From the IMG/VR virus record IMGVR_UViG_3300045988_098128, positions 1-53,864 of that record: a stretch of DNA of 53,864 nucleotides. One strand, given 5' to 3'. The notes beneath the pieces are model-generated. The model did no database searches and was not told the DNA's origin. It saw only the letters and a program-made list of their open reading frames with translations. Position numbers and translations under genes: made by a program. Shown here piece by piece: positions 5,137 to 52,041 of this stretch. Numbering within the stretch: position 1 is the first letter of the stretch; every line of letters begins with the position of its first letter. Origin of the DNA: a virus.

Positions 5137-5825
5137 GGATTGCTCCTTGCTTTTGTGATTGAGAATTTAATGTGAGTTATACTTCTTCCCGTCCGCGTCG
5201 GCTCATAGGCTACACGCAAATCACTAACGGCGTTAATTTCGTCAACGGCAGTGTCGATTACGCGCTTGCGAAAATCAATAAAATCCGAATAACCGCCTAT
5301 TTGCATAAGCGTTTTCAAATTTTCAACAGAAACGGTATACTCGCCTATATTGGCATAGCTTTTAAGTATCTCGTACAAACGTATAGTGTGTTTCGATTCC
5401 ATGTTTAACACGGTTTGAAGCTGATATGCCGTATACGATTCTTTGAGTTCGAGCAAATAAGGCGCTAACCGCTTGTCAAGCTGAATCCTAACCCGCGATT
5501 CATTTTCGTATATTTCCGCACCCGAAATCCATGCGCATAGCTTTCTTACATTTCCGTCCACTATCCAGAATGACTTGTCGCGTATGGATTGCAGCGTTTC
5601 ACGGAGATTCTTGTAATTCTTGCCGTTTTGAGTAATTCCAAGTGATTCACACATATCTTGCAGATTGAAATCATACTCATAAAGTTCTTTATCATCGGGT
5701 TTTACCTTGCTTATCGTATACAATATGACTTTTTGCTCCTGTGTTGTCATTCCGTATCTTGACTTTTGAATTAGTTCGTTCTTTTTGACAACCAAATTAT
5801 TAATTTTTTTATCGCTATTTTCCAT
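5133..5825 (-). CDS. Rep_3 (RepB-type) plasmid replication initiator
   Basis: The N-terminal pattern NNLVVKKNELIQKSRYGMTTQEQKVILYTISKV... is typical of the Rep_3 family. The iterons lie immediately upstream. The start was set to the ATG at 5825, which follows AAGGGAG. Confidence 0.85.
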   Translation of the reverse strand: MENSDKKINNLVVKKNELIQKSRYGMTTQEQKVILYTISKVKPDDKELYEYDFNLQDMCESLGITQNGKNYKNLRETLQSIRDKSFWIVDGNVRKLCAWISGAEIYENESRVRIQLDKRLAPYLLELKESYTAYQLQTVLNMESKHTIRLYEILKSYANIGEYTVSVENLKTLMQIGGYSDFIDFRKRVIDTAVDEINAVSDLRVAYEPTRTGRSITHIKFSITKARSNP

Positions 5826-5884: not shown

Positions 5885-5926
5885 CTGCAAAAGAACAATT
5901 TTCCCGTGTGTTTTCTCGGTTTTACA

Positions 5927-6038
5927 GTTACCAAATGTCCTGTTTATCGTTACCAAGTGTCCTGTTTTACAGTTACCAAATGTCCTGCTATCCGTTACCA
6001 AATGTCCTGTTTATCGTTACTAAGTGTCCTGTTTAACA
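5927..6038. repeat. five tandem 22-23 bp iterons (GTTACCAARTGTCCTGYTWWHC)
   Basis: Copies lie at 5927, 5949, 5972, 5994 and 6016, contiguous and in direct orientation, upstream of the Rep_3 gene. Confidence 0.9.
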
Positions 6039-29353: not shown

Positions 29354-29391
29354 ACGAATAGCCCCTATCGGCTCTTACTGTAACCCGATTG

Positions 29392-29574
29392 TTACAGCGT
29401 TTTTATAGTGTATTTAGCTTTTCTCGAAGCGGTTATTTCAAGTATAGTGACCTCTTCGCGCGATTTCTTAATTTTAACGTCATTGCCGCGTTCCAAAATC
29501 TCGTTGATTATGAGAAGCGCGTCTTCTTTGACATACTTGTGACGGTGCGCGTGTTTCTCTTCTTCCATAGCCAC
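29392..29574 (-). CDS. hypothetical small protein (60 aa)
   Basis: ORF fills the gap between TerL and the portal gene. Confidence 0.45.
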   Translation of the reverse strand: MAMEEEKHAHRHKYVKEDALLIINEILERGNDVKIKKSREEVTILEITASRKAKYTIKTL

Positions 29575-33425: not shown

Positions 33426-33683
33426 ATGAAATACTACACACAGATGATTATCTCTACAGCCAGCTACACTACCGAGCTTGACCAGCCGCAGGAAATCGAA
33501 AAAAAGGAATTTACCCAAAAAAACGTCAATGACTGGTGCGAGCAGTACGCCGCCGACACTGGTGACAGCTCTGACATTGACTGCCTCGGCTTTGTCCTCA
33601 CCGACGAGAACGAAAACGAGATAGAAACGCTCTATTACCGAGAGCGTCGCGCCGATTATCACGGCTCACACAAAACCCACTAA
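33426..33683 (+). CDS. hypothetical acidic protein (85 aa)
   Basis: The RBS AAGGAGAA lies upstream. It is the first ORF after the promoter. Confidence 0.6.
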   Translation: MKYYTQMIISTASYTTELDQPQEIEKKEFTQKNVNDWCEQYAADTGDSSDIDCLGFVLTDENENEIETLYYRERRADYHGSHKTH

Positions 33684-33768
33684 GCAGAGTGACGGGAGCA
33701 ATCCCGTTAATGCGGTCCGGCAGACGGTCACAAACCCCGAAAGCCGAAAAGAAAGGAATTATCAAAAA

Positions 33769-35508: not shown

Positions 35509-35616
35509 GAAGTCAATTAATAAAAAAGCCGACCGAGCGGCTATAAATAGGGTTTAGGCTCGGTGCGTTCCCTCTTCGGAGGGAGGTATCTAACAAAATC
35601 GAAAGGTGAATCAAAA

Positions 35617-37452: not shown

Positions 37453-37767
37453 AAAAACAGAATGGCAACGGATTGGCGAAGCTACGCGGAGACTAATAAT
37501 GCATGGAAAAGCAGAGAAACGGCGAGGCGACGGAATAGAATCGCACTGTATAGTTGGAAATGCTGTGAAAAGCGAAGAAACGGCATCGCACTGCAACCAA
37601 TAGATGGAAAAGCAAAGGATAAGCAGGGCGCTGATTCGCTCAGTGTGCCAAGAAAAGCAAAGGCATTGCGACGAAGAGCTTAGCGTGGACCAGAAACGAA
37701 AAGGAAATGCACTGCATTGCATCTAAAAGAAGGAAATGCGGCGAAAAGGAAAAGAAAGGACTAAAAA
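37453..37767 (+). repeat. T-poor purine-rich intergenic element R1 (315 nt)
   Basis: It shares many 8-12-mers with R2 at 50083-50404 (acggaatagaa, gaagaaacg, gaatggcaacgga, gaaacgaaaagg). Internal repeats include tggaaaagca and atcgcactg. Confidence 0.7.
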
Positions 37768-38370
37768 ATGTCGGAATTTGTAGCAAAAGAGTTAAAAGTT
37801 AGATTGACGTTTGTAGAAGAGGTGTTAGGCTCGTCTCCATCAAGCGAGAAAATCTATAGTGAGTACATAGCAAGCAAAGCGCCGGACTCGCTTGACACAG
37901 AGGACGAAATAGAAGCAATAGGCAACGAAGAAGACAACAAAGGCGTGACAGTTTTCCCGAAGCAGGACGGCAAGCCTGGTGTGTGGGATTATCAGGTAAA
38001 AGGCGCGTTCAAGGACGCCTGCGGTGGTCTCTCCCGCGTAAAAACGACGGAATCAGCCAAAATCAAGGCTTATAAAAAGGTCATTGATAAGCTGATTTTC
38101 GTCGAGCCGCGTTTCGCTCCGTATCAAGTCAACGGTGAGATTGGCATATGCGAACGCCCGTTGAGAACCAACGGCGCGACAGGCGAAAGAACAGCACTCG
38201 CCGCATCGGAAACACTTCCCGCCGGTTCTTCCGTCGAATTCACAATCCTGCTGTTCGACGAAAAGCTTGAACCGGCAGTCCGCGAATGGCTTGACTACGG
38301 CAAATACAGCGGCTTCGGACAGTGGCGGAATTCCGGAAAAGGCAGATACACCTGGGAAGAAAGCAAATAA
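37768..38370 (+). CDS. hypothetical protein, diverged paralog of 48736..49392 (RAMP-like Gly loop?)
   Basis: Both proteins share an N-terminal beta-strand (LKVRLTFVEEVLG vs VTLRIVGETPLIM), a central G.P...YQVKGAFKDA vs FGFPVTAFKQAA, and a C-terminal SGFGQWRNSGKGRY vs GVGEWRPERDGQYGKF. Confidence 0.65.
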   Translation: MSEFVAKELKVRLTFVEEVLGSSPSSEKIYSEYIASKAPDSLDTEDEIEAIGNEEDNKGVTVFPKQDGKPGVWDYQVKGAFKDACGGLSRVKTTESAKIKAYKKVIDKLIFVEPRFAPYQVNGEIGICERPLRTNGATGERTALAASETLPAGSSVEFTILLFDEKLEPAVREWLDYGKYSGFGQWRNSGKGRYTWEESK

Positions 38371-40105: not shown

Positions 40106-40267
40106 GCTCCACAACGTGCCAGAACCATCTGTGGTGCGTGTTGTTTGCTTTTTAGTGATTTACCTGTCTTGAATAATAACACGCTTTAAACGGCTTCTGT
40201 GACGTTCAGAACGCGTTCCGTCAAATCAGTTTCCCGCAAAAGTTTTACCGGATAGCGAACTTTGACA

Positions 40268-40333
40268 GTCAAACGAATGTCAATTTGACGTCAAACGGAA
40301 GTCAAATTGAATTCAATCGGAATTCAAACGATG
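40268..40333. repeat. three tandem 22-bp repeats (GTCAAACGRAWGTCAAWTTGA-like)
   Basis: gtcaaacgaatgtcaatttgac / gtcaaacggaagtcaaattgaa / ttcaatcggaattcaaacgatg. Confidence 0.75.
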
Positions 40334-40362
40334 TTTAACCGCTAATTAACAGTGATTTAACT

Positions 40363-40430
40363 GTTACAGTAACGTTACAGTAACAGTTACAGTAACGTTA
40401 CAGTAACAGTTACACTAACGTTACAGAAAC
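40363..40430. repeat. six tandem 11-bp palindromic units GTTAC-A-GTAAC (putative origin or operator array)
   Basis: Copies at 40363, 40374, 40386, 40397, 40409 (gttacactaac) and 40420 (gttacagaaac). Confidence 0.9.
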
Positions 40431-40512
40431 ACCGTTCCAAGAACGTTCCAAAGACGTTTTAAAAACAGAAAGTCACCGTGACCGCTTAATCTGACAGTCA
40501 GACAATTTTCAG

Positions 40513-44784: not shown

Positions 44785-45022
44785 GAGACAGCTTGTAGAT
44801 GAGCTGCACAGAAACTGGAAAACACGCGGCTACACCGACGGCGGAATGGCGGAATTGCTCGAAATAACACCGAAAACAATTCATTACAAACTCAGCGGAA
44901 ACTTCCCTCACAACGGCTACAAAGCGCATTTTAAGGTCAACGAGATATTACAGATAATACACTATCTCGGCTTCAAACTCTATCTTGTGAGAGAGGATGG
45001 AGAACATGGCATTAATCAGTGA
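44756..45022 (+). CDS. hypothetical HTH-like protein (88 aa)
   Basis: ORF within the operon. Contains GMAELLEITPKTIHYKLSG. Confidence 0.5.
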   Translation: MKKVTEIIDERQLVDELHRNWKTRGYTDGGMAELLEITPKTIHYKLSGNFPHNGYKAHFKVNEILQIIHYLGFKLYLVREDGEHGINQ

Positions 45023-45812
45023 CAAGTGGAAAAACGAACTCAACTCGCTCTCTCAAAAGGACTATATTACGCTGACAAAAGCCATTTTGTTTGACCTTCC
45101 AGAACCACAGATATCCGCGAACAATCAGTACATAGCAGACAGGATATATGCAAGTCTGAAGGAAAGGACAAGAGCTAAAGAGGGAATGCAAAAAACGAGA
45201 AGGGAACGTAACAACTCCGTAACGTTACAAGAATGTTACAGTAACAACTCCGTAACGTTACAAGAATGTTACGGACAAGAAGAGAGAAAAGAAGGTGTCC
45301 CCCCTTGTTCCCCCCTTCCTCTTTCCCCCACACCCCCTATTACTAACCCCCCTATAATCCCCCCTTACCAAGAAAAAAGAGAAGAAGCACTAACGGGCGT
45401 GTGCGCGGGCGCGTGTGAGGACGAGCAGATTTCCTTTGAAGGCTTTGAACCCCTTGACCCGCCGGAATCCGAGGTTAAGCACAGAAAACCGACGATAGCG
45501 GAGCGTTTTGATGCATTATGGGCAGAATACCCCAAGAAAAACGGCAAAAAGAACGCTTTTGAGAGCTATCAGAGAGCTATAGCAGCCGGAGTGACCGACG
45601 AGACTATTGCCGACGGTATCAGGAGGTACAAGGACTACATAGCCGCAAAGCGCACGAGCGAACAGTACATACTTGCAGGCTCGACATACTTCTACCAGTG
45701 GCGTTGGCAAGACATATACGACACAAACACAGCCGACGGAAAAGACGAAAACGGAAAGCCGGCATGGATGTCGCAGGAAGACTGGGAGGAAATGAATGCA
45801 GTATTCGGATAA
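44997..45812 (+). CDS. replisome organizer / replication initiator-like protein with internal repeat array
   Basis: The C-terminal pattern FDALWAEYPKKNGKKNAFESYQRAI...YILAGSTYFYQWRWQD, a Pro-rich linker and an in-gene 2 x 33-bp repeat. It is followed by the DnaC-like loader. Confidence 0.65.
   Translation: MENMALISDKWKNELNSLSQKDYITLTKAILFDLPEPQISANNQYIADRIYASLKERTRAKEGMQKTRRERNNSVTLQECYSNNSVTLQECYGQEERKEGVPPCSPLPLSPTPPITNPPIIPPYQEKREEALTGVCAGACEDEQISFEGFEPLDPPESEVKHRKPTIAERFDALWAEYPKKNGKKNAFESYQRAIAAGVTDETIADGIRRYKDYIAAKRTSEQYILAGSTYFYQWRWQDIYDTNTADGKDENGKPAWMSQEDWEEMNAVFG
45208..45273. repeat. 2 x 33-bp exact-like tandem repeat rich in GTAAC/GTTAC boxes, inside the organizer gene
   Basis: gtaacaactccgtaacgttacaagaatgttac(a/g) occurs twice, encoding NNSVTLQECY twice. 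Confidence 0.9.
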
Positions 45813-46638
45813 TCCGTTCGCAGACACACTTACGAAAATAGCGCAAGCCGCAAAAGAAGCGAATCCGCGAGAGGACGGAGACTATACCGAAAACGGACTG
45901 CTGTATTGCGGAAAATGCCACACTCCGAAAGAGACAACAGTCACACTCGGAGGACGCGAAACAAAAGTGGCGTGTATGTGCAAATGCCGAGAAGAACAAG
46001 CGGAAGCCGAACGGAAAAAGTTCATCCACGACAGCCGAGCGGAAGCACTCAAAGACAGCGCATACGGTGACAAGGCACTGCGTAACTGCTGCTTTGAGAA
46101 CGACGACGGCACAAACCCAGAGCTGACAAAGAAATGCCGGAACTACGTTGAAAACTTCGAGAGGTTCAGCGAAAGCGGAAAAGGACTTCTGTTCTTCGGC
46201 TCATGCGGAACAGGCAAAACATATGCCGCTCTTGAAATTGCCAACGCGCTGATGGATAAGCTCTATTCCGTCAAGTTCGCAACGTTCACGGCGATAGCGA
46301 ACGAACTCTTTGATAACCCCGAAAAGCAAGGATACATAAACCGCCTTGCACAGGACTATGACCTCTTGTGCATCGACGACTACGCGGCAGAGAGAAACAC
46401 CCCATGGATGAACGAACAGCTTTTTGCAGTGATAGACGCACGGTGCAAAGCTCACAAACCGCTCATAGTCACCACAAACCTCACGAGAGACGAAATGTTT
46501 GACAGAAAGAACATAGACCGATACCGTATCTGCTCCCGCCTGATGGAGCTGTGTATCGCGGTAGAGGTAAACGGCAAAGACCGAAGAATATCGGACTATA
46601 TCAAAACCAAAGCAGAGTTTGAAGACCTGAACCAATGA
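45796..46638 (+). CDS. DnaC/IstB-like AAA+ helicase loader with N-terminal zinc finger
   Basis: Walker A motif FFGSCGTGKTY, Walker B motif LLCIDDYAAE, and N-terminal CGKCHTP...CMCKC. Confidence 0.8.
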   Translation: MQYSDNPFADTLTKIAQAAKEANPREDGDYTENGLLYCGKCHTPKETTVTLGGRETKVACMCKCREEQAEAERKKFIHDSRAEALKDSAYGDKALRNCCFENDDGTNPELTKKCRNYVENFERFSESGKGLLFFGSCGTGKTYAALEIANALMDKLYSVKFATFTAIANELFDNPEKQGYINRLAQDYDLLCIDDYAAERNTPWMNEQLFAVIDARCKAHKPLIVTTNLTRDEMFDRKNIDRYRICSRLMELCIAVEVNGKDRRISDYIKTKAEFEDLNQ

Positions 46639-46899: not shown

Positions 46900-47208
46900 A
46901 TGAAACAAAGGCTGATACAGAATACACTGATATCGAGCGGCGTGACAATGCTCGGAGTTATAACCTCATGCGGAATGTGGTACTACACCGCCCCCTCGTG
47001 CGTCGTGTTCGCCGTAAGCGCATTGACAATGTGTCTGCTCACCATAGCAATAACAGCCGTCAGAGAGCTTTTCAGAGTGTATGAGCGCACACTGCCGAGA
47101 AAGCGCAGGAGAATCCGCATGAGATACGACAGCCGCGGAATGCACACCGACAGTCAGCGTCTCGGCTACGTATCGGCGGAAACAATCAGAGAGGTGTGCA
47201 GAAGATGA
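46900..47208 (+). CDS. small membrane protein
   Basis: The ATG at 46900 follows AAAGGACA. Two hydrophobic segments are present. Confidence 0.5.
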   Translation: MKQRLIQNTLISSGVTMLGVITSCGMWYYTAPSCVVFAVSALTMCLLTIAITAVRELFRVYERTLPRKRRRIRMRYDSRGMHTDSQRLGYVSAETIREVCRR

Positions 47209-47486
47209 AAAACGAAAGGAGCAAAACAATGACTGACGCAGAAAGATGTGTAACGTGCGGAGCTGTGATTCCCGAAGGGAGACAGGTATGCCCGATATGC
47301 TATGCGAAATACCACAACGACTACTCGGAAGAGCTGGCGTACCTCTGGAAGGTGCTGAAAAAGACCGAAAGCAGTCTCAAAACTGCCGACAAGAGAAACG
47401 CGCCGAACGAAGAACGCGCAAACCTCCGCAAAAGGCGCGATATGCTGTACACGATAATCAACATTGTGGAGGACGCGGGAGCATGA
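47205..47486 (+). CDS. zinc-ribbon protein
   Basis: Contains CVTCGAVIPEGRQVCPIC. ATGA overlaps on both sides. Confidence 0.55.
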   Translation: MKNERSKTMTDAERCVTCGAVIPEGRQVCPICYAKYHNDYSEELAYLWKVLKKTESSLKTADKRNAPNEERANLRKRRDMLYTIINIVEDAGA

Positions 47487-48277
47487 AGTGCTTGGCAAAG
47501 AAAACGCAGTACCAAAAGGCGGAGAACGCACTCACCACCGAATACGGAATGTGGCTTCTCGAATACGTTGACGTTGCTTTCGGCGTAACGCTTGCCGAGA
47601 ACTACGGCTTCCGCGAAAAGCGACTGCAAAGGTTTTACGACGGCAACCGCAACGGACTTTGCGAAATGGTTAACGCCAATATGCCGACGGCAATGTTTGT
47701 TGACAAAGGCAAGGGCAGACGCAAGGGAGACAGTTCAGACCTCATTGACGATGGCGTAGACACGACGGAGTACATGATAAAGCGCGAACTCCGAAACATA
47801 GGCTTCTCGGACTGTGATTTTGAAGCACTGTCGCCGGAGAACCGCTACAACGAGAGCGAACGCCACACACAGCTCGATGTCATGTCTCACAACGTGAGAA
47901 CGGCGTGGTATGAAGCAAACGCAAGACGCGCTGTTAGGCTCTACGCGGCGTATACTCTGCTTTATATGCATGACACCTACAACTACGGCGCGGAGAGATT
48001 AAACCGCCTGTACGCGCTCGTAGCCCCTCAGATAAAGTCTTACGTCGAACGATTCTTAATAGGCAGCCGCCGCGTCGACAGAGAGCTGCACAAGGAACTG
48101 GACGAGATGCACGGCAAACTTGAGAAATGCGGACTGCACCTCGAAGAAGTTGTAAAGGAAGACGCGGTAGCGGTAAGCCGAAAAGAACCGCCGAAAGAAC
48201 CAAAGAACCCGCCGATACACCTTGACATAGGCGAATACGAAAAAATCATGAAAGAAGTTGCCCGAGTGGCGTTATAG
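47483..48277 (+). CDS. hypothetical protein (264 aa)
   Basis: Track ORF 47246..48277 trimmed to the ATG at 47483 (ATGA overlap). Confidence 0.6.
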   Translation: MKCLAKKTQYQKAENALTTEYGMWLLEYVDVAFGVTLAENYGFREKRLQRFYDGNRNGLCEMVNANMPTAMFVDKGKGRRKGDSSDLIDDGVDTTEYMIKRELRNIGFSDCDFEALSPENRYNESERHTQLDVMSHNVRTAWYEANARRAVRLYAAYTLLYMHDTYNYGAERLNRLYALVAPQIKSYVERFLIGSRRVDRELHKELDEMHGKLEKCGLHLEEVVKEDAVAVSRKEPPKEPKNPPIHLDIGEYEKIMKEVARVAL

Positions 48278-48287
48278 GGAGATACAC

Positions 48288-48698
48288 ATGAACTTCAAAC
48301 TTAAAGCAGGAGCGTTCGCGCCGATAAGAGCGCACAAGCAGGACGCGGGAGTAGACCTCTTATCCCCCGTCACGGTCACGATATACCCTGGAGACAGCGC
48401 GACAATAGATACAGGAGTGTGCGCGGAGATACCCGAGGGATTCTGCGGTCAGATATGGTCAAAGAGCGGACTGAACGTCAACCACGGCATTCTCTCGACA
48501 GGAATGGTGGACAGCGGTTACGGCGGCAGTATCAAGATTAAGCTCTACAACCACTCTCACGAGATTTACACGGTAAATCGCGGAGACAAGATATCACAGC
48601 TTGTGGTAACACCTTGCGACACAAGCGACGTGGTCATAGTAGACGAAATAGCAAGCGGAGAGCGCGGAGAAAACGGCTTCGGCAACACGGGAAGATAA
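48288..48698 (+). CDS. dut: dUTPase
   Basis: The motifs AGVDL, KSGL, DSGYGG and ERGENGFGNTG are present. The ATG at 48288 follows GGGAG. Confidence 0.85.
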   Translation: MNFKLKAGAFAPIRAHKQDAGVDLLSPVTVTIYPGDSATIDTGVCAEIPEGFCGQIWSKSGLNVNHGILSTGMVDSGYGGSIKIKLYNHSHEIYTVNRGDKISQLVVTPCDTSDVVIVDEIASGERGENGFGNTGR

Positions 48699-48735
48699 TC
48701 GCAAATTAAACAAAACACAAAGGAGAAAACAATAA

Positions 48736-49392
48736 ATGGCTACGAAAACAGAACAGAGCGCACTGGAAATTAAGGAAATTATACTTGAAACGGTTACGTT
48801 GAGGATTGTCGGCGAAACTCCGCTGATTATGCACGCATGGAGTGAAAAGGCAAAGCGTGAAATCCTCGACAAGCAGATGAAAGCAACAAAGACAAGCGCG
48901 AAAAAAGCAAAGAATCCTGTGGAAGACTTCATCAGGTCAATGTATTGGCTCACACCAATGCCCACAGACATGACCGAAGACGGATTTAACGAAGCTATAG
49001 CAAACGGAGCAAGGTTTGGCTTCCCTGTCACGGCATTCAAGCAAGCCGCAATTTCCGCTTCCTACCGCATGGGATGGAGCAAGGACAAGGCTTCTTTGAG
49101 AGGTGTGTTCTTCATAGAGGGAGACGAAAATCAGATGATTGAAATCAAAAGTGACGTTCCCGTAATGCGCGAAGATATGGTAAAAATCGCGGGAGGAACG
49201 GCGGACATTCGTTTCCGCGGCGAGTTCAGGAAGTGGTACGCAGACATGAAGATAACATACAACAAGAATGGACAGTACACACTTGAACAGATAATCAACA
49301 TCATAAATGCAGGCGGTTATTGTTGCGGTGTGGGCGAATGGAGACCCGAGCGAGACGGTCAGTACGGCAAGTTCAGAGTAGCTACAATCTAA
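48736..49392 (+). CDS. hypothetical protein, diverged paralog of 37768..38370
   Basis: See 37768..38370. The RBS AAAGGAGAA lies upstream. Confidence 0.65.
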   Translation: MATKTEQSALEIKEIILETVTLRIVGETPLIMHAWSEKAKREILDKQMKATKTSAKKAKNPVEDFIRSMYWLTPMPTDMTEDGFNEAIANGARFGFPVTAFKQAAISASYRMGWSKDKASLRGVFFIEGDENQMIEIKSDVPVMREDMVKIAGGTADIRFRGEFRKWYADMKITYNKNGQYTLEQIINIINAGGYCCGVGEWRPERDGQYGKFRVATI

Positions 49393-49398
49393 CCTCTT

Positions 49399-49566
49399 GG
49401 CAGGCGAGGTGGGGCACGGCGCGGCTTGGCAAGGTAAGGTAAGGTTCGGCAGGTGTGGTGTGGTGAGATGGGGTATGGTATGGCAAGGTCCGGCCTGGTA
49501 TGGTATGGCAGGCATGGCATGGCAAGGCGCGGCACGGTGAGGTGAGGTTTGGTAAGGTTCGGCAGG
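49399..49566 (+). repeat. degenerate pentanucleotide array (about 33 x GGNNN)
   Basis: A GG dinucleotide recurs every 5 nt from 49399 to about 49562, with three single-nt phase slips (at about 49403, 49452 and 49511). Many adjacent duplicated pentamers occur (aaggt x3, ggtgt x2, ggtat x2 twice, gcatg x2, gtgag x2). Confidence 0.9.
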
Positions 49567-49611
49567 TATGGATATACCAAAATTATTAACAGTTAACAAA
49601 GGAGCAAAACA

Positions 49612-50082
49612 ATGGTTTACGAATGGAAAGAAGCGGCGCAGATTAAAGCGGACGCACAAAAAGCAGGAGAAATGTTAGAAAATTTGGAGAAGACTGTAGG
49701 GATTACTCCAAAGAATTTAGTCGAAGCAAACAGAGATGAATCAGCACCTCTGCACAATGAATTCGAGTGGAACGACACAAAAGCCGCCGAAAAATACCGC
49801 GAAACACAAGCAGGCTATATCATCCGCAACATATGTGTTGTGAGAGAAAGCGAAGAGAAACCGCCCGTCAGAGCGTTCTATTCCGTTACAACCGACGAAG
49901 AACGCAAATACGAAAGTCTGAATGTGATTATAAAAAGTGAGGACAAAACAAAGAAACTTCTTGAATCCGCATTAAGAGAACTTATCGCGTTCAAAGCGAA
50001 GTATTCAATGCTTTCCGAAATAGCGAATGTAATTAAAGCTATTGACGAAGTCCAGTGCGCAGAAGCGCAACGGAACAGATAA
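49612..50082 (+). CDS. hypothetical protein (156 aa)
   Basis: The RBS AAAGGAG lies upstream. Contains the motif SAPLHNEFEWNDTKAAEKYRETQAGYIIRNI. Confidence 0.6.
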   Translation: MVYEWKEAAQIKADAQKAGEMLENLEKTVGITPKNLVEANRDESAPLHNEFEWNDTKAAEKYRETQAGYIIRNICVVRESEEKPPVRAFYSVTTDEERKYESLNVIIKSEDKTKKLLESALRELIAFKAKYSMLSEIANVIKAIDEVQCAEAQRNR

Positions 50083-50404
50083 GCTACGACACGATTAGCA
50101 ACGGAATAGAAACGAATCGAGAAGAAACGCACCGCGCCGAAAAGGAATCGAATGGACAGGCGGCGAAAGGCACAGCAACGGAGAAGACAGGCGTCGCAGA
50201 GAGCGGCAATGGAATGGCGCTGAGACGCAACGATTGGCACAGCAACGGAAAGGCAACGTAAGGAATCGAGTCGCGACGAAAGGTGTAGCAACGGAACAGC
50301 AGTGCTAAGATACGCCACGGAATGGCACCGAATCGCTACGACAGGACCCGAAACGGAAAAGCAAAAATACCGCGCCGGCGGAATCCGGCAGAAAGGAAGA
50401 TAAT
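50083..50404 (+). repeat. T-poor purine-rich intergenic element R2 (322 nt)
   Basis: agcaacgga occurs at 50097, 50174, 50241 and 50287. gctacgaca occurs at 50083 and 50334. It shares words with R1. Confidence 0.7.
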
Positions 50405-51001
50405 ATGGCAAAGTTTAAAGTTGGGGATAGAGTTATTGTGGTAGTAGACGGGAATACGGTTCCACGTGGCACGACGGGTGTCATTAAATACTTTGGCAAA
50501 GACGCGGATAAAGGAAAAATAGATATAGCAATAGAACTTGACCGCCCAATATCGTACCACGACTGTGGAGGGAGAACCAAATACGGCTGCGGCTGGTGGG
50601 TAGCAGAAAGAGATATCGAACTCATAAAAACCGCAGAACCCGAATTTAAACTGATTATCACCTCAAAGGGCGATACCACTACGGCAAAGCTGATACACGG
50701 CGAAAGAACTGTAGTAAAAGAAGCAACCGTGACAAGATACAGCAAAGACGAATACAGCGAGAAAGCCGCCGTTGAAGCTGTTGTGAAGAAGATTTTCGGC
50801 GAGGACGAGAAAAAGAACGAAGCAAACAAGCCGTACACTGGCAAGGCTGTGTGGATATGCGACAACGAGAGCGTTTATACAAAAGGCAAAATATATGAAT
50901 TTGTTGACGGCAAATTCAAACACGATTTAGGATTTACAGTTGTCGGATACACCCTCGAAAAAATGAAACGGCTCGGCTGCTTTCTCCCGATAGTGGAATG
51001 A
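50405..51001 (+). CDS. hypothetical protein (198 aa)
   Basis: The RBS GAAAGGAAG lies upstream. Confidence 0.6.
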   Translation: MAKFKVGDRVIVVVDGNTVPRGTTGVIKYFGKDADKGKIDIAIELDRPISYHDCGGRTKYGCGWWVAERDIELIKTAEPEFKLIITSKGDTTTAKLIHGERTVVKEATVTRYSKDEYSEKAAVEAVVKKIFGEDEKKNEANKPYTGKAVWICDNESVYTKGKIYEFVDGKFKHDLGFTVVGYTLEKMKRLGCFLPIVE

Positions 51002-51016
51002 TGGAGGACGAATGAA

Positions 51017-51313
51017 ATGTCGATGAGAGATTACGAAGACCTCAAAGATATAGAGATTCCGCGCAAACAAGAAATGATGATGGATATCATGTGCAAAGCG
51101 TGGGAAGAATGCCGAGAATTGCATTGCGCACACTGCCAGGACAGACCGAAAAAGTATATGCGCATGATGGAGTGTACCGCGCTAAAGTATGCGCGACTGC
51201 TTTACGAAGCAGGATTGACATACACCGAAGAAGACGTGCGCTACGCATACAACGACGGTTACGCTTGCGGAATGGAACAAGGTATAGAAGCAGAAAGGAG
51301 CAGAAAAGGATGA
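51017..51313 (+). CDS. hypothetical protein (98 aa)
   Basis: ORF within the operon. Confidence 0.55.
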   Translation: MSMRDYEDLKDIEIPRKQEMMMDIMCKAWEECRELHCAHCQDRPKKYMRMMECTALKYARLLYEAGLTYTEEDVRYAYNDGYACGMEQGIEAERSRKG

Positions 51314-52041
51314 ATAACTACGAAGAAGAATACTTTGAAGATGAAAATGACCTTGAAGAAGAGCATTTTGGAGATTTTGTAGATTTTTGGGACGATACGC
51401 CCGAATTTGATGAACAGATAGAGGAATTTAAAACTGCGCTTAGAGCGGATGTCAAGCGTGAAATCAAGGAACTTATAGAAAGGCTCCAAAAGGAACTCGA
51501 CGAGCTGAAAGACTATAAAGCATGCAAAAACGAAATCGAAGCCGGATACCGTAATGCAGTAGCGAAGTTAAAAAAAGCCGAATTGGAACTCGAAGACAAG
51601 TACCGCAACAAGAAAGCGCAGGAAATACTTGCTGAATGCTGTACGGTAGGATGGAAAGCGGCATGGCGATACGACGAACCGAAAGAAAAATGCGACAAGT
51701 GCGATGAGGACGGATATATCACGTTTTACTCTCCGCAAGGCACGAAATACCGTGAACAGTGCAAATGCCGCCATAAAGACGTGATATATTACCCTGCCGA
51801 GACAAGACTTGCGCGTATTTACGCAAGCAAATCGCCTGAAACAGTACAGTTTTACTACGACAAGGTACGGGGAGACGGTCAGAGTTACAGCGATTATGTG
51901 CGCTGTTACGTAGTGCGCAGCAGCGATTTCAAACCCGAAAAAATAGATAGTTATGATTATTGTGTAACGGTATTTGCCAACAAAGAGGACTGCGAAAAAT
52001 ACTGCGAATGGCTTAACAATAAGGAGAAAAACAATGAATAA
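51310..52041 (+). CDS. acidic coiled-coil protein with C-terminal zinc-finger-like motif
   Basis: Track ORF trimmed to the ATG at 51310 (ATGA overlap). Contains KCDKCDEDGY...CKC. Confidence 0.6.
   Translation: MNNYEEEYFEDENDLEEEHFGDFVDFWDDTPEFDEQIEEFKTALRADVKREIKELIERLQKELDELKDYKACKNEIEAGYRNAVAKLKKAELELEDKYRNKKAQEILAECCTVGWKAAWRYDEPKEKCDKCDEDGYITFYSPQGTKYREQCKCRHKDVIYYPAETRLARIYASKSPETVQFYYDKVRGDGQSYSDYVRCYVVRSSDFKPEKIDSYDYCVTVFANKEDCEKYCEWLNNKEKNNE

What the first reader, a model, noticed from the sequence alone, without database searches (positions are those of the whole stretch)
49399..49566. Intergenic array of about 170 bp with strict 5-nt periodicity (about 33 x GGNNN)
Between the stop of 48736..49392 and the RBS of 49612..50082, a GG dinucleotide recurs every fifth base from 49399 to about 49562. 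There are three single-base phase slips, near 49403, 49452 and 49511.

Pentamers are often duplicated side by side: aaggt x3, ggtgt x2, ggtat x2 (twice), gcatg x2 and gtgag x2. This gives a 15-nt super-period.

A 5-nt period is incompatible with coding. It explains the Pro-rich pseudo-repeats seen in all minus-strand frames. It is also neither a CRISPR array nor an iteron array.

Three readings are possible:
- An RNA with a (N)GG triplet every 5 nt wraps a ring-shaped or helical RNA-binding protein. Compare the TRAP 11-mer, which binds GAG/UAG triplets with 2-3 nt spacers.
- The G2N3 tracts on the non-template strand form arrays of two-tetrad G-quadruplexes or R-loops.
- The array is a recombination or replication signal.

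The array lies in the middle of the early operon, so it is certainly transcribed.
Basis: seen in the sequence. Interest (0 to 1): 0.7.

Follow-up and report, generated by a model that had tools for sequence, protein, structure and literature searches.

The report
Phage VIPR guide-RNA array (vrRNAs)
The 5-nt GG repeat is real; it is the guide-RNA array of a VIPR system, a CRISPR-related phage weapon first described in two 2026 preprints, so this is an unannotated new example of a known kind.

Summary
GG recurs at +5 nt 29 times in 49399-49571, against 8.2 +/- 2.5 in dinucleotide shuffles, and no other part of the window comes close.

It is a VIPR (Viral Interference Programmable Repeat) locus.
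- The upstream gene 48736-49392 encodes a Vipr RAMP protein. Its family profile hits the solved SUSP1 Vipr (PDB 36pp, E=1e-9). Its AlphaFold model matches only Cas7/Csm3 proteins.
- The repeat unit is GGYNN, with GGY fixed and NN hypervariable.
- The "phase slips" are GGCAGG junctions. They cut the array into three guides of 9, 11 and 10 units, the "staggered" vrRNA layout.
- The downstream gene 49612-50082 is the conserved accessory gene (vap) candidate.

About 120 related phage loci share this layout, and the array always lies on the coding strand. Phages with 100% identical Vipr carry quite different guide sets.

Guides from relatives obey the published 1-nt-skip code. Two of them match rival vipr genes in frame, and one matches this window at 49269-49307.

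I found no natural target for this window's own three guides.

The G-quadruplex and replication-signal readings are not supported.

Novelty: new member of a known kind.

The parts
48736..49392 (+). vipr gene: 218-aa Vipr protein, a minimal Cas7-like RAMP that binds one GGYNN repeat per protomer
   Evidence: A profile of 20 relatives hits PDB 36pp_D 'SUSP1 Vipr protein', E=9.7e-10, over residues 141-204. The AF2 model (pLDDT 71) gives only Csm3/Cas7/Cas7-11 as top PDB matches, prob 0.97-1.0. The G-loop CGVGEWRP is invariant. No Pfam or NCBIfam hit; phrog_4652 of unknown function.
49399..49404 (+). first GGCAGG junction (leader end); the 4-nt unit GGCA causes the first phase slip
   Evidence: GGCAGG-to-GGCAGG distances in 45 related loci plus the window fall in the 5n+4 class in 130 of 153 cases.
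49403..49447 (+). vrRNA guide 1: 9 GGYNN units; NN code GA GG AC GC TT AA AA AA TC
   Evidence: Parsed. The same guide is present in L048 and L215, and absent from other phages with 98-100% identical Vipr.
49448..49453 (+). second GGCAGG junction (boundary between guides 1 and 2)
49452..49506 (+). vrRNA guide 2: 11 units; NN code GT GT GA GG AT AT AA CC CT AT AT; unit 4 (49467-49471, GATGG) is degenerate
49507..49512 (+). third GGCAGG junction (boundary between guides 2 and 3)
49511..49560 (+). vrRNA guide 3: 10 units; NN code AT AT AA GC AC GA GA TT AA TC
   Evidence: L048 carries the same guide with one extra unit (AA), i.e. a 5-nt indel polymorphism.
49561..49578 (+). last GGCAGG junction plus the conserved array end GGCAGGTATGGATATACC
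   Evidence: Identical in the close relatives L001-L007, L009 and L042 whatever guides precede it.
49612..50082 (+). candidate vap (vipr-accessory protein), 156 aa, conserved PLHxxFEWND..AA..YR..QAR motif
   Evidence: A homologue follows vipr and the array in 41 of 45 loci. It directly follows vipr in the most distant relative L045 and in Mycobacterium phage Saal. phrog_15946 of unknown function. The AF2 model has pLDDT 92 but no significant PDB match. The weak top hits include winged-helix MarR/ArsR/RQC proteins, prob <=0.06. In BFVD it matches only uncharacterised phage proteins.
49269..49307 (+). site inside this phage's own vipr gene (codons for GQYTLEQIINIIN) matched by a rival phage's guide under the 1-nt-skip code
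   Evidence: The 13-unit guide of L012/L059 matches 23 of 26 NN positions here and 24 of 26 in L014/L061, but only 17 of 26 in its own vipr gene. The skipped bases fall on third codon positions.

Best explanation
The array is a staggered vrRNA array of a VIPR system.

**Proposed mechanism.**
1. The locus vipr (48736-49392), array (49399-49578) and vap candidate (49612-50082) is transcribed rightward as part of the early operon. This step is inferred: no + strand terminator-like site was found across it.
2. The transcript is cut at or next to the GGCAGG junctions into three guides of 9, 11 and 10 GGYNN units. This step is inferred from the published description of staggered arrays.
3. Vipr protomers polymerise along each guide, one per pentamer. 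They bury G1, G2 and Y3 and expose the two variable bases. This was shown for SUSP1 Vipr; here it is inferred from homology and from conserved contact residues.
4. The exposed NN dinucleotides pair with double-stranded DNA that carries NN-x-NN-x..., skipping one base per unit. This clamps the DNA in an R-loop triplex and blocks transcription of a competing phage or mobile element. The skip rule is supported here only for guides of relatives.
5. The skipped base usually sits on the codon wobble position, so synonymous escape mutations do not help the target.

The specific targets of this window's three guides are unknown.
For: **Protein.**
- The family profile hits the solved SUSP1 Vipr at E=9.7e-10.
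- In that alignment, E201-W202-R203 lie under SUSP1 D177-W178-R179, C197 under C173 and R161 under R138. Four of these SUSP1 residues (R138, D177, W178, R179) are named GGY contacts in the cryo-EM paper; C173 is listed there as shaping the pyrimidine pocket.
- H33 is invariant in the family and sits on a beta-strand, like SUSP1 H17.
- The Foldseek top 50 are all RAMPs: Csm3, type VII Cas7, Cas7-11 and Cmr.

**RNA.**
- Over 1146 units the composition is G 96%, G 84% (T 13%), Y 92%, then two near-random positions.
- Guides have 6-16 units, mostly 9-11. The published range is 9-16.
- The RNA fold is no better than shuffles, z=0.02, as expected for an unstructured, protein-bound guide.

**Architecture.**
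- 130 of 153 GGCAGG spacings are 5n+4. This fits 'staggered arrays' in which neighbouring vrRNAs overlap by 1 nt.

**Comparative evidence.**
- The array is present next to vipr in nearly all of the roughly 120 loci examined, across 30-100% Vipr identity. It is always on the coding strand: 237 versus 0.
- It is also present in cultured Gordonia phage Pipp and Mycobacterium phage Saal.
- Phages with 98-100% identical Vipr carry unrelated guide sets. Near-identical arrays differ by single NN substitutions or by one 5-nt unit.

**Code.**
- I searched 1.22 Mb of related loci with 212 guides, allowing up to 3 mismatches and using guides of at least 10 units. The 1-nt-skip model gives 41 hits from 15 guides. 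The 0-skip, 2-skip and reversed controls give 2, 3 and 4 hits.
- At P<1e-9 the 1-nt-skip model gives 28 hits from 2 guides and the controls give none.
- Both strong guides hit conserved parts of rival vipr genes, in frame, with the skip on the wobble base.
Against: - No target was found for the window's own guides.
  - Exact 1-nt-skip patterns gave no match in IMG/VR for all three guides and for two variants.
  - Guide 2 gave no match in the metagenome collection.
  - Guide 2 gave one GTDB hit, in a Streptococcus LysR-type gene with the skip on the first codon position. About 0.1 hits were expected by chance (my rough estimate, not a tool result), and I judge it chance.
  - Guide 3 gave five metagenome hits in unrelated contigs of 26-69% GC, also judged chance.
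  - The best local hits are 15/18, 16/22 and 16/20, which is chance level.
- The sequence match to SUSP1 Vipr covers only the C-terminal 64 residues.
- The Vipr model is of moderate confidence (pLDDT 71), with the loops that should bind RNA below 50.
- There is no invariant structured 3' tail like that of the characterised type II vrRNAs.
- The authors did not confirm staggered arrays by RNA sequencing.
- Expression, processing and RNP formation were not testable here.
- The vap assignment rests on synteny alone.
Confidence: 0.9

Rival explanations
1. The transcript is a protein-binding platform or sponge without a guide function. The RAMP-like protein, or another GG-binding protein, coats it to regulate translation or stability of the downstream gene. 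This would be TRAP- or CsrA-like regulation.
For: - The array sits 40 nt upstream of the RBS of 49612-50082 in the same operon.
- No DNA target of the window's own guides was found.
Against: - A binding platform needs only the GGY part. It does not explain hypervariable NN with wholesale guide turnover between phages that have identical proteins.
- It does not explain why relatives' guides match coding DNA under the 1-nt-skip rule far above controls.
- In relatives the array can lie upstream of vipr or downstream of vap, so its position relative to the vap RBS is not conserved.
- The triplet is GGY, not (G/U)AG or A(N)GGA in hairpin loops, and no structure is predicted.
Confidence: 0.05
2. It is a DNA- or RNA-level G-quadruplex or R-loop element. 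The G2N3 tracts form two-tetrad quadruplexes that pause polymerases or mark the region.
For: - The sequence has more than 30 GG tracts with 3-nt loops and 48% G on one strand.
- That is formally compatible with weak two-tetrad G4s. This statement rests on my own knowledge; no G4 test was run.
Against: - A G4 would not need a pyrimidine at position 3 (92%).
- In relatives GG often decays to GT while the register is kept (13% T at position 2). That breaks G-tracts but not a protein-read repeat.
- The GGCAGG punctuation at 5n+4 spacing has no G4 rationale.
- The obligate linkage to a RAMP gene has no G4 rationale either.
Confidence: 0.02
3. It is a hypervariable microsatellite, or a recombination, replication or packaging signal, with no RNA function.
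For: - Array length varies between near-identical phages, and unit-sized indels occur, as in slippage-prone repeats.
Against: - Replication-type iterons lie elsewhere in the window (40262-40431 and 45205-45272, next to the initiator and loader genes).
- A neutral microsatellite would not keep GGY fixed while randomising NN.
- It would not stay on one strand in 237 of 237 cases.
- It would not persist beside the same gene from gut phages to actinophages.
Confidence: 0.02

Closest known systems
VIPR systems (Viral Interference Programmable Repeat), in particular the 'staggered vrRNA array' architecture. Sources: bioRxiv 10.64898/2026.04.26.720920 and 10.64898/2026.04.26.720927, 2026.
   Same: - Phage-borne minimal locus of a ~20-kDa RAMP (Vipr) plus an accessory gene.
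- Guides made of tandem YNNGG/GGYNN pentamers, with fixed GGY and hypervariable NN.
- 9-11 units per guide here.
- Neighbouring guides offset by one nucleotide.
- Guides of relatives match coding DNA with one skipped base per unit, on the wobble position.
- Some guides aim at other VIPR loci.
   Different: - This is not the characterised type II (SUSP1, P. fulva). Vipr aligns to SUSP1 Vipr only over the C-terminal G-loop region.
- There is no pseudoknotted 3' tail. Guides are separated only by GGCAGG.
- The array lies between vipr and vap here, whereas in SUSP1 one vrRNA lies upstream of the protein-coding genes and three in an array downstream of them.
- I could not assign the type (I-VII), because the paper's supplementary data are not held.
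- The authors state that staggered arrays were not confirmed by RNA-seq.
Class 1 CRISPR-Cas backbone (Cas7/Csm3 filament on crRNA)
   Same: - Same fold: the top structural matches are Csm3, type VII Cas7 and Cas7-11.
- Same logic: a RAMP filament holds an RNA and periodically flips bases out with a thumb.
   Different: - The period is 5 nt with three bases sequestered, against 6 nt with one base flipped.
- Targeting information is interleaved with the repeat, rather than held in a contiguous spacer between repeats.
- No CRISPR repeat-spacer array is present at this locus.
- cas genes were not searched for systematically, and none turned up among the ORFs I scanned.
TRAP-trp leader RNA
   Same: An oligomeric protein reads a short triplet that recurs about every 5 nt on an unstructured RNA.
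   Different: - TRAP is an 11-mer ring that reads (G/U)AG and controls attenuation. That statement is from my own knowledge.
- Here the triplet is GGY, the protein is a RAMP helical filament of open length, and the spacer bases carry the information.

Membership tests
VIPR system | Vipr protein with a RAMP fold: RRM core, glycine-rich loop and thumb | tested here: met
   The AF2 model has a beta-alpha-beta core, a beta-hairpin at 143-164 and a C-terminal G-loop. The Foldseek PDB top 50 are all Cas7/Csm3/Cmr-type RAMPs, prob up to 1.0.
VIPR system | Sequence homology to an experimentally characterised Vipr | tested here: met
   The profile of 20 relatives against PDB sequences gives one hit only: 36pp_D 'SUSP1 Vipr protein', E=9.7e-10. 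The alignment covers query 141-204 and chain 120-181. The N-terminal two thirds are not aligned.
VIPR system | Residues that read GGY (SUSP1 H17, R138, D177, W178, R179, C173) | tested here: met
   In the HMMER alignment, R161, E201 (D to E), W202, R203 and C197 fall under R138, D177, W178, R179 and C173. R161, E201, W202 and R203 are invariant and C197 is nearly invariant (>=90%) across 20 relatives. The H33 to H17 equivalence is inferred only: H33 is invariant and lies on a beta-strand, but was not aligned.
VIPR system | vrRNA of 9-16 tandem YNNGG repeats with conserved GGY and hypervariable NN | tested here: met
   The three guides have 9, 11 and 10 units. Family unit composition is G96/G84/Y92/N/N. 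Guide sets are unrelated between phages with identical Vipr.
VIPR system | Minimal non-CRISPR locus (vipr plus vap) on a phage | tested here: met
   The window encodes terminase, portal, major head, tape measure and endolysin-like proteins. The vap candidate is syntenic in 41 of 45 loci. No CRISPR-type repeats are present. The vap function is unverified.
VIPR system | Targets follow the 1-nt-skip code (NN-x-NN-x) | tested here: inconclusive
   Met for the family: 41 hits from 15 guides against 2-4 in three control models, and two guides at P<1e-9 on rival vipr genes with the skip on the wobble base. Not shown for this window's three guides, for which no credible target was found.
VIPR system | vrRNAs are expressed, processed and co-purify with Vipr; the complex silences transcription | not testable with these tools
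   This needs small-RNA-seq, pull-down and reporter assays.
VIPR type II (SUSP1 / P. fulva clade) | Each vrRNA ends in an invariant structured 3' tail (a pseudoknot in SUSP1) | tested here: not met
   Guides abut through GGCAGG only. The whole intergenic RNA folds no better than shuffles, z=0.02. The locus is therefore not type II.
VIPR staggered-array architecture | Adjacent vrRNAs share or overlap by 1 nt, so the register shifts by one at each boundary | tested here: met
   There is a 4-nt GGCA unit at every boundary in the window. 130 of 153 junction spacings are 5n+4. The published figure (S18) could not be inspected; only its legend was read.
CRISPR-Cas (class 1) | Array of identical 24-48-nt repeats separated by unique spacers, with an adaptation module | tested here: not met
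   TRF, the repeat finder and Rfam find no such array at the locus. Only a Cas7-like fold is shared. cas1/cas2 were not searched for specifically.
TRAP-type RNA-binding attenuation | (G/U)AG triplets spaced by 2-3 nt and bound by an 11-mer ring | tested here: not met
   The triplet is GGY. The neighbouring protein is a RAMP, not a TRAP-fold protein.

The most novel reading that the evidence does not exclude
This phage clade may carry two different RAMP-guide systems at once.

A second RAMP-like gene lies at 37768-38370. Its family profile hits type VII Cas7 and Csm4 through the G-loop.

It is accompanied by arrays of single-G pentamers (GNNNN).
- One array lies upstream of that gene, at 37471-37703.
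- The other is a very regular staggered array of eight guides, at 50073-50355, directly behind the first system's vap.

The VIPR paper mentions NNNNG-type repeats, but its main text gives no recognition code for them.

If real, one 54-kb phage would run two orthogonal repeat codes, with the second system's guides lodged inside the first system's locus.
Probability: 0.45. Interest if true: 0.55.

Novelty: new member of a known kind. Interest (0 to 1): 0.42.

Why it matters
VIPR is an RNA-guided DNA-recognition principle described only in 2026. This locus matters for four reasons.

- **Size of the family.** It belongs to a very large metagenomic family of phages. 5015 Vipr relatives reach E<=0.001 in the protein collection, all without a functional name in the 120 listed. 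One relative comes from a Faecousia MAG and the window carries a gut-2 RNA, so the setting is probably the gut.
- **Architecture.** It uses the staggered, tail-less array layout that has not yet been confirmed experimentally.
- **Natural variation.** Phages with identical Vipr proteins carry different guide sets, which gives a natural record of guide turnover.
- **VIPR against VIPR.** Rival guides aim at conserved vipr codons, while the attacker's own allele has diverged.

The same architecture occurs in cultured Mycobacterium and Gordonia phages, next to their immunity genes. In Gordonia phage Pipp the array is annotated as a protein-coding gene. These phages offer tractable systems for testing.

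Tried and rejected
**Searches that gave nothing useful for the array.**
- Rfam at gathering thresholds found nothing at the array. There are no tRNAs.
- blastn of 47000-52000 against INPHARED phages found no match.
- Pfam and NCBIfam found nothing for Vipr. For vap they gave only sub-threshold noise.

**Target searches for the window's guides.**
- Exact 1-nt-skip patterns in IMG/VR gave no match. I tried all three guides, the 11-unit L048 variant of guide 3, and guide 2 with its degenerate unit masked.
- Metagenome scans gave nothing for guide 2. Guide 3 gave five hits that I rejected as chance: unrelated contigs of 26-69% GC with no common gene.
- The GTDB genome scan for guide 2 gave one hit, in a Streptococcus LysR-type regulator beside glmS. 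The skip falls on codon position 1 and I estimated about 0.1 chance hits, so I rejected it.
- Local mismatch-tolerant searches gave only chance-level scores. I searched 1.2 Mb of vipr-centred loci and 0.5 Mb of loci around the second RAMP.
- Self-targeting within the window is at most 16/22.

**vap.**
- The structure search found no significant PDB match. In BFVD it matched only uncharacterised viral proteins.

**GNNNN arrays of the second system.**
- Nine simple pairing models gave no excess over reversed controls.

**Ideas considered early and dropped.**
- TRAP, CsrA or Hfq-type binding.
- Chi-site clusters.
- Telomere-like repeats.
- A terminase pac site.
- ParR- or omega-type centromeres.
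- A link between the pistol and twister ribozymes and the arrays. The ribozymes lie between early ORFs about 2 kb and more from any array.

Full report
**1.

Window 49399-49571 reads as consecutive pentamers beginning with GG.
- GG is followed by GG five bases later 29 times. In 5000 dinucleotide-preserving shuffles the mean is 8.2, the sd 2.5 and the maximum 18.
- The period-5 power of G is 2.58, against a shuffle mean of 0.26 and maximum of 1.96.
- No other 168-nt stretch of the window has more than 4 such pairs.
- The odd spot at 49467-49471 is a degenerate unit (GATGG) that keeps register.
- The unit is GGYNN.
- A 15-nt super-period is not supported. The real higher order is the 49/59/54-nt spacing of the GGCAGG motifs.

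**2. The array is conserved beside one gene.**

The upstream ORF 48736-49392 (218 aa; no Pfam hit; phrog_4652 of unknown function) has relatives on 45 IMG/VR contigs at 30-100% identity.
- Nearly all of them carry a GG-period-5 array next to the gene, always on the gene's strand, with lengths from about 100 to 600 nt.
- A second, profile-based scan with 10-kb flanks gave 80 loci.
- Among 81 non-redundant sequences, 237 GGCAGG-delimited guides lie on the coding strand and none on the other.
- GGCAGG-to-GGCAGG distances are 5n+4 in 130 of 153 cases.
- Over 1146 units, position 1 is G in 96%, position 2 is G in 84% (T in 13%) and position 3 is a pyrimidine in 92%. Positions 4 and 5 are close to random.
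- The downstream ORF 49612-50082 has a homologue after vipr and the array in 41 of 45 loci.

**3. Identification.**

A profile of the upstream protein family, searched against all PDB chain sequences, gave a single hit: 36pp_D, 'SUSP1 Vipr protein', E=9.7e-10.

That name led to two 2026 preprints describing VIPR systems. Their main points are these.
- A phage-encoded minimal RAMP protein (Vipr) polymerises on vrRNAs made of 9-16 YNNGG repeats, one protomer per repeat.
- The protomers sequester GGY and present the NN dinucleotides.
- The NN dinucleotides pair with double-stranded DNA while skipping one target base per unit.
- The complex silences transcription of competing phages.

Support from the window protein:
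- In the HMMER alignment, R161, E201, W202, R203 and C197 lie under SUSP1 R138, D177, W178, R179 and C173. R138, D177, W178 and R179 are named GGY contacts in the cryo-EM paper and C173 shapes the pyrimidine pocket. The window residues are invariant or nearly invariant in the family.
- An AlphaFold model (pLDDT 71) finds only Cas7-type RAMPs in the PDB: Csm3, type VII Cas7, Cas7-11 and Cmr, with prob 0.97-1.0. The structure library predates release of the Vipr entries.
- The intergenic RNA has no predicted structure beyond shuffles, z=0.02.
- No + strand terminator-like site separates the three parts.

**4. Anatomy in the window.**

| Coordinates | Part |
|---|---|
| 48736-49392 | vipr |
| 49399 | leader junction (GGCAGG) |
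| 49403-49447 | guide 1: GA GG AC GC TT AA AA AA TC |
| 49452-49506 | guide 2: GT GT GA GG AT AT AA CC CT AT AT |
| 49511-49560 | guide 3: AT AT AA GC AC GA GA TT AA TC |
| 49561-49578 | conserved end, GGCAGGTATGGATATACC |
| 49612-50082 | vap candidate |

- The one-base register shift at each boundary matches the paper's 'staggered arrays', where neighbouring vrRNAs overlap by 1 nt. I could read only the figure legend. The authors say this layout was not confirmed by RNA sequencing.
- The locus lacks the structured 3' tail of the characterised type II, so it is not type II.
- I could not assign a type, because the supplementary data are not held.
- The vap candidate folds confidently (pLDDT 92) but has no significant structural or family match. 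Its weak, non-significant hits include winged-helix proteins.

**5. Does the family use the published code?**

I converted 212 unique guides from relatives into gapped patterns and searched 1.22 Mb of related loci plus the window.
- With at most 3 mismatches (guides of at least 10 units), the 1-nt-skip model gave 41 hits from 15 guides. The 0-skip, 2-skip and reversed controls gave 2, 3 and 4 hits.
- At P<1e-9 per position, the 1-nt-skip model gave 28 hits from 2 guides, and the controls none.
- Both strong guides hit conserved parts of other phages' vipr genes, in frame, with the skipped base on the third codon position.
- One (from L083) matches the DMVRIGMGTADIR thumb region in L093, L103 and L106.
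- The other (from L012/L059) matches the G-x-Y-x-L-E-Q-I-x-N-I-I-N region. It scores 23/26 in this window at 49269-49307 and 24/26 in L014, but only 17/26 in its own vipr.
- This reproduces the published statements that skips fall on wobble positions and that some vrRNAs aim at other VIPR systems.

**6. Guide turnover.**

- Phages whose Vipr is 98-100% identical to the window's carry unrelated guide sets.
- Only L048 and L215 share the window's three guides, and L048 has one extra unit in guide 3.
- Near-identical arrays differ by single substitutions in NN positions.

**7. What this array targets is not known.**

- Exact-pattern scans for all three guides and two variants found nothing in IMG/VR.
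- Guide 2 found nothing in the metagenome collection.
- Guide 2 found one GTDB hit, in a Streptococcus LysR-type gene with the wrong codon phase.
- Guide 3 found five metagenome hits in unrelated contigs.
- I judge all of these hits to be chance.

**8. Context and relatives.**

- The window is a tailed phage genome.
- The Vipr family has 5015 members at E<=0.001 in the metagenomic protein collection. None of the 120 listed carries a functional name, and one comes from a Faecousia MAG.
- tblastn finds full-length relatives at 35-38% identity in cultured Gordonia and Mycobacterium phages. It also finds C-terminal matches in Felixounavirus-type coliphages; SUSP1 itself was not among the 40 rows shown.
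- In Mycobacterium phage Saal a GGCAGG-punctuated array precedes gene 51 (vipr), and gene 52 is the vap homologue. The locus sits beside the immunity repressor and antirepressor genes.
- In Gordonia phage Pipp the array follows gene 42 and is annotated as protein-coding gene 43.

**9. Verdict.**

The finding is real and is a VIPR vrRNA array with its Vipr gene. The class has been public since April 2026, so this is a new, unannotated member of a known kind.

**10. Side finding.**

- A second RAMP-like gene lies at 37768-38370. Its family profile hits type VII Cas7 at E=0.003 and Csm4 at E=0.006.
- Its 80 IMG/VR relatives show a period-5 G signal beside the gene.
- In the window, GNNNN-type arrays lie upstream of it (37471-37703).
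- Directly behind the first system's vap there are eight consecutive runs of 7-10 GNNNN units (50073-50355). Each run is shifted by +1 nt at an ACGGAA junction.
- Among the loci examined before that script stopped (L047-L066), such arrays follow vap only in the clade that also has this second gene.
- No pairing rule emerged from simple models.

Noticed in passing
window 37453-38370 and 50073-50355: Probable second VIPR-like system. It has a 200-aa RAMP-like gene (37768-38370; the family profile hits type VII Cas7 at E=0.003 and Csm4 at E=0.006 via the G-loop). It also has arrays of single-G pentamers (GNNNN). One lies upstream of the gene (37471-37703). The other is a very regular staggered series of eight runs of 7-10 units at 50073-50355, each shifted +1 nt at an ACGGAA junction, directly behind the first system's vap. 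GCAACGGA occurs 12 times in the window against 1.9 expected. Among the loci examined (L047-L066), these arrays follow vap only in the clade that also carries the second RAMP. No target rule was found.
   Followed up: partly
window 35527-35591 (+), 33683-33740 (+), 29354-29401 (-): Rfam matches above gathering score: Pistol ribozyme (62.7 bits), type-P5 twister ribozyme (38.1 bits) and gut-2 RNA (51.1 bits). The two ribozymes sit between early ORFs, not next to any repeat array.
   Followed up: partly
window 40262-40431 and 45205-45272: Iteron-like tandem repeats, with 11/22-23-nt units such as TAACAGTTACAG and a perfect 33-nt duplication. The second block overlaps the start of the replication-initiator gene (44997-45812), which is followed by the DnaC-like loader gene (45796-46638). 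This is probably the replication origin.
   Followed up: no
window 5919-6035: Tandem repeat of a 22-nt unit (GTTACCAAATGTCCTGTTTATC), 4.9 copies, in a low-GC stretch. Not examined.
   Followed up: no
L209 3117-3386 (Gordonia phage Pipp, MN234179.1 33093-33362) and L210 2094-2341 (Mycobacterium phage Saal, NC_023580.1 36584-36831): Cultured actinophages carry the same vipr, GGCAGG-punctuated array and vap layout beside their immunity and integration genes. In Pipp the array is annotated as a hypothetical protein (gene 43). In Saal the annotated start of gene 51 runs into the array.
   Followed up: partly
L007 5152-5385: In a close relative, an ORF downstream of the locus consists of 6-nt GGC-NNN repeats. 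It reads as Gly-X dipeptide repeats in one frame and as Ala/Met/Leu repeats in the frame of the ATG at 5152. The window has a different gene at that position.
   Followed up: no
L211-L216 (contigs encoding a Vipr 100% identical to the window's): The exact Vipr protein is indexed in 66 blocks of the assembly collection. The vipr-vap intergenic length ranges from 116 to 279 nt, and the guide sets are wholly different. L215 (ENA ERZ28618384, 52.75-kb contig) has the window's exact guide set.
   Followed up: partly
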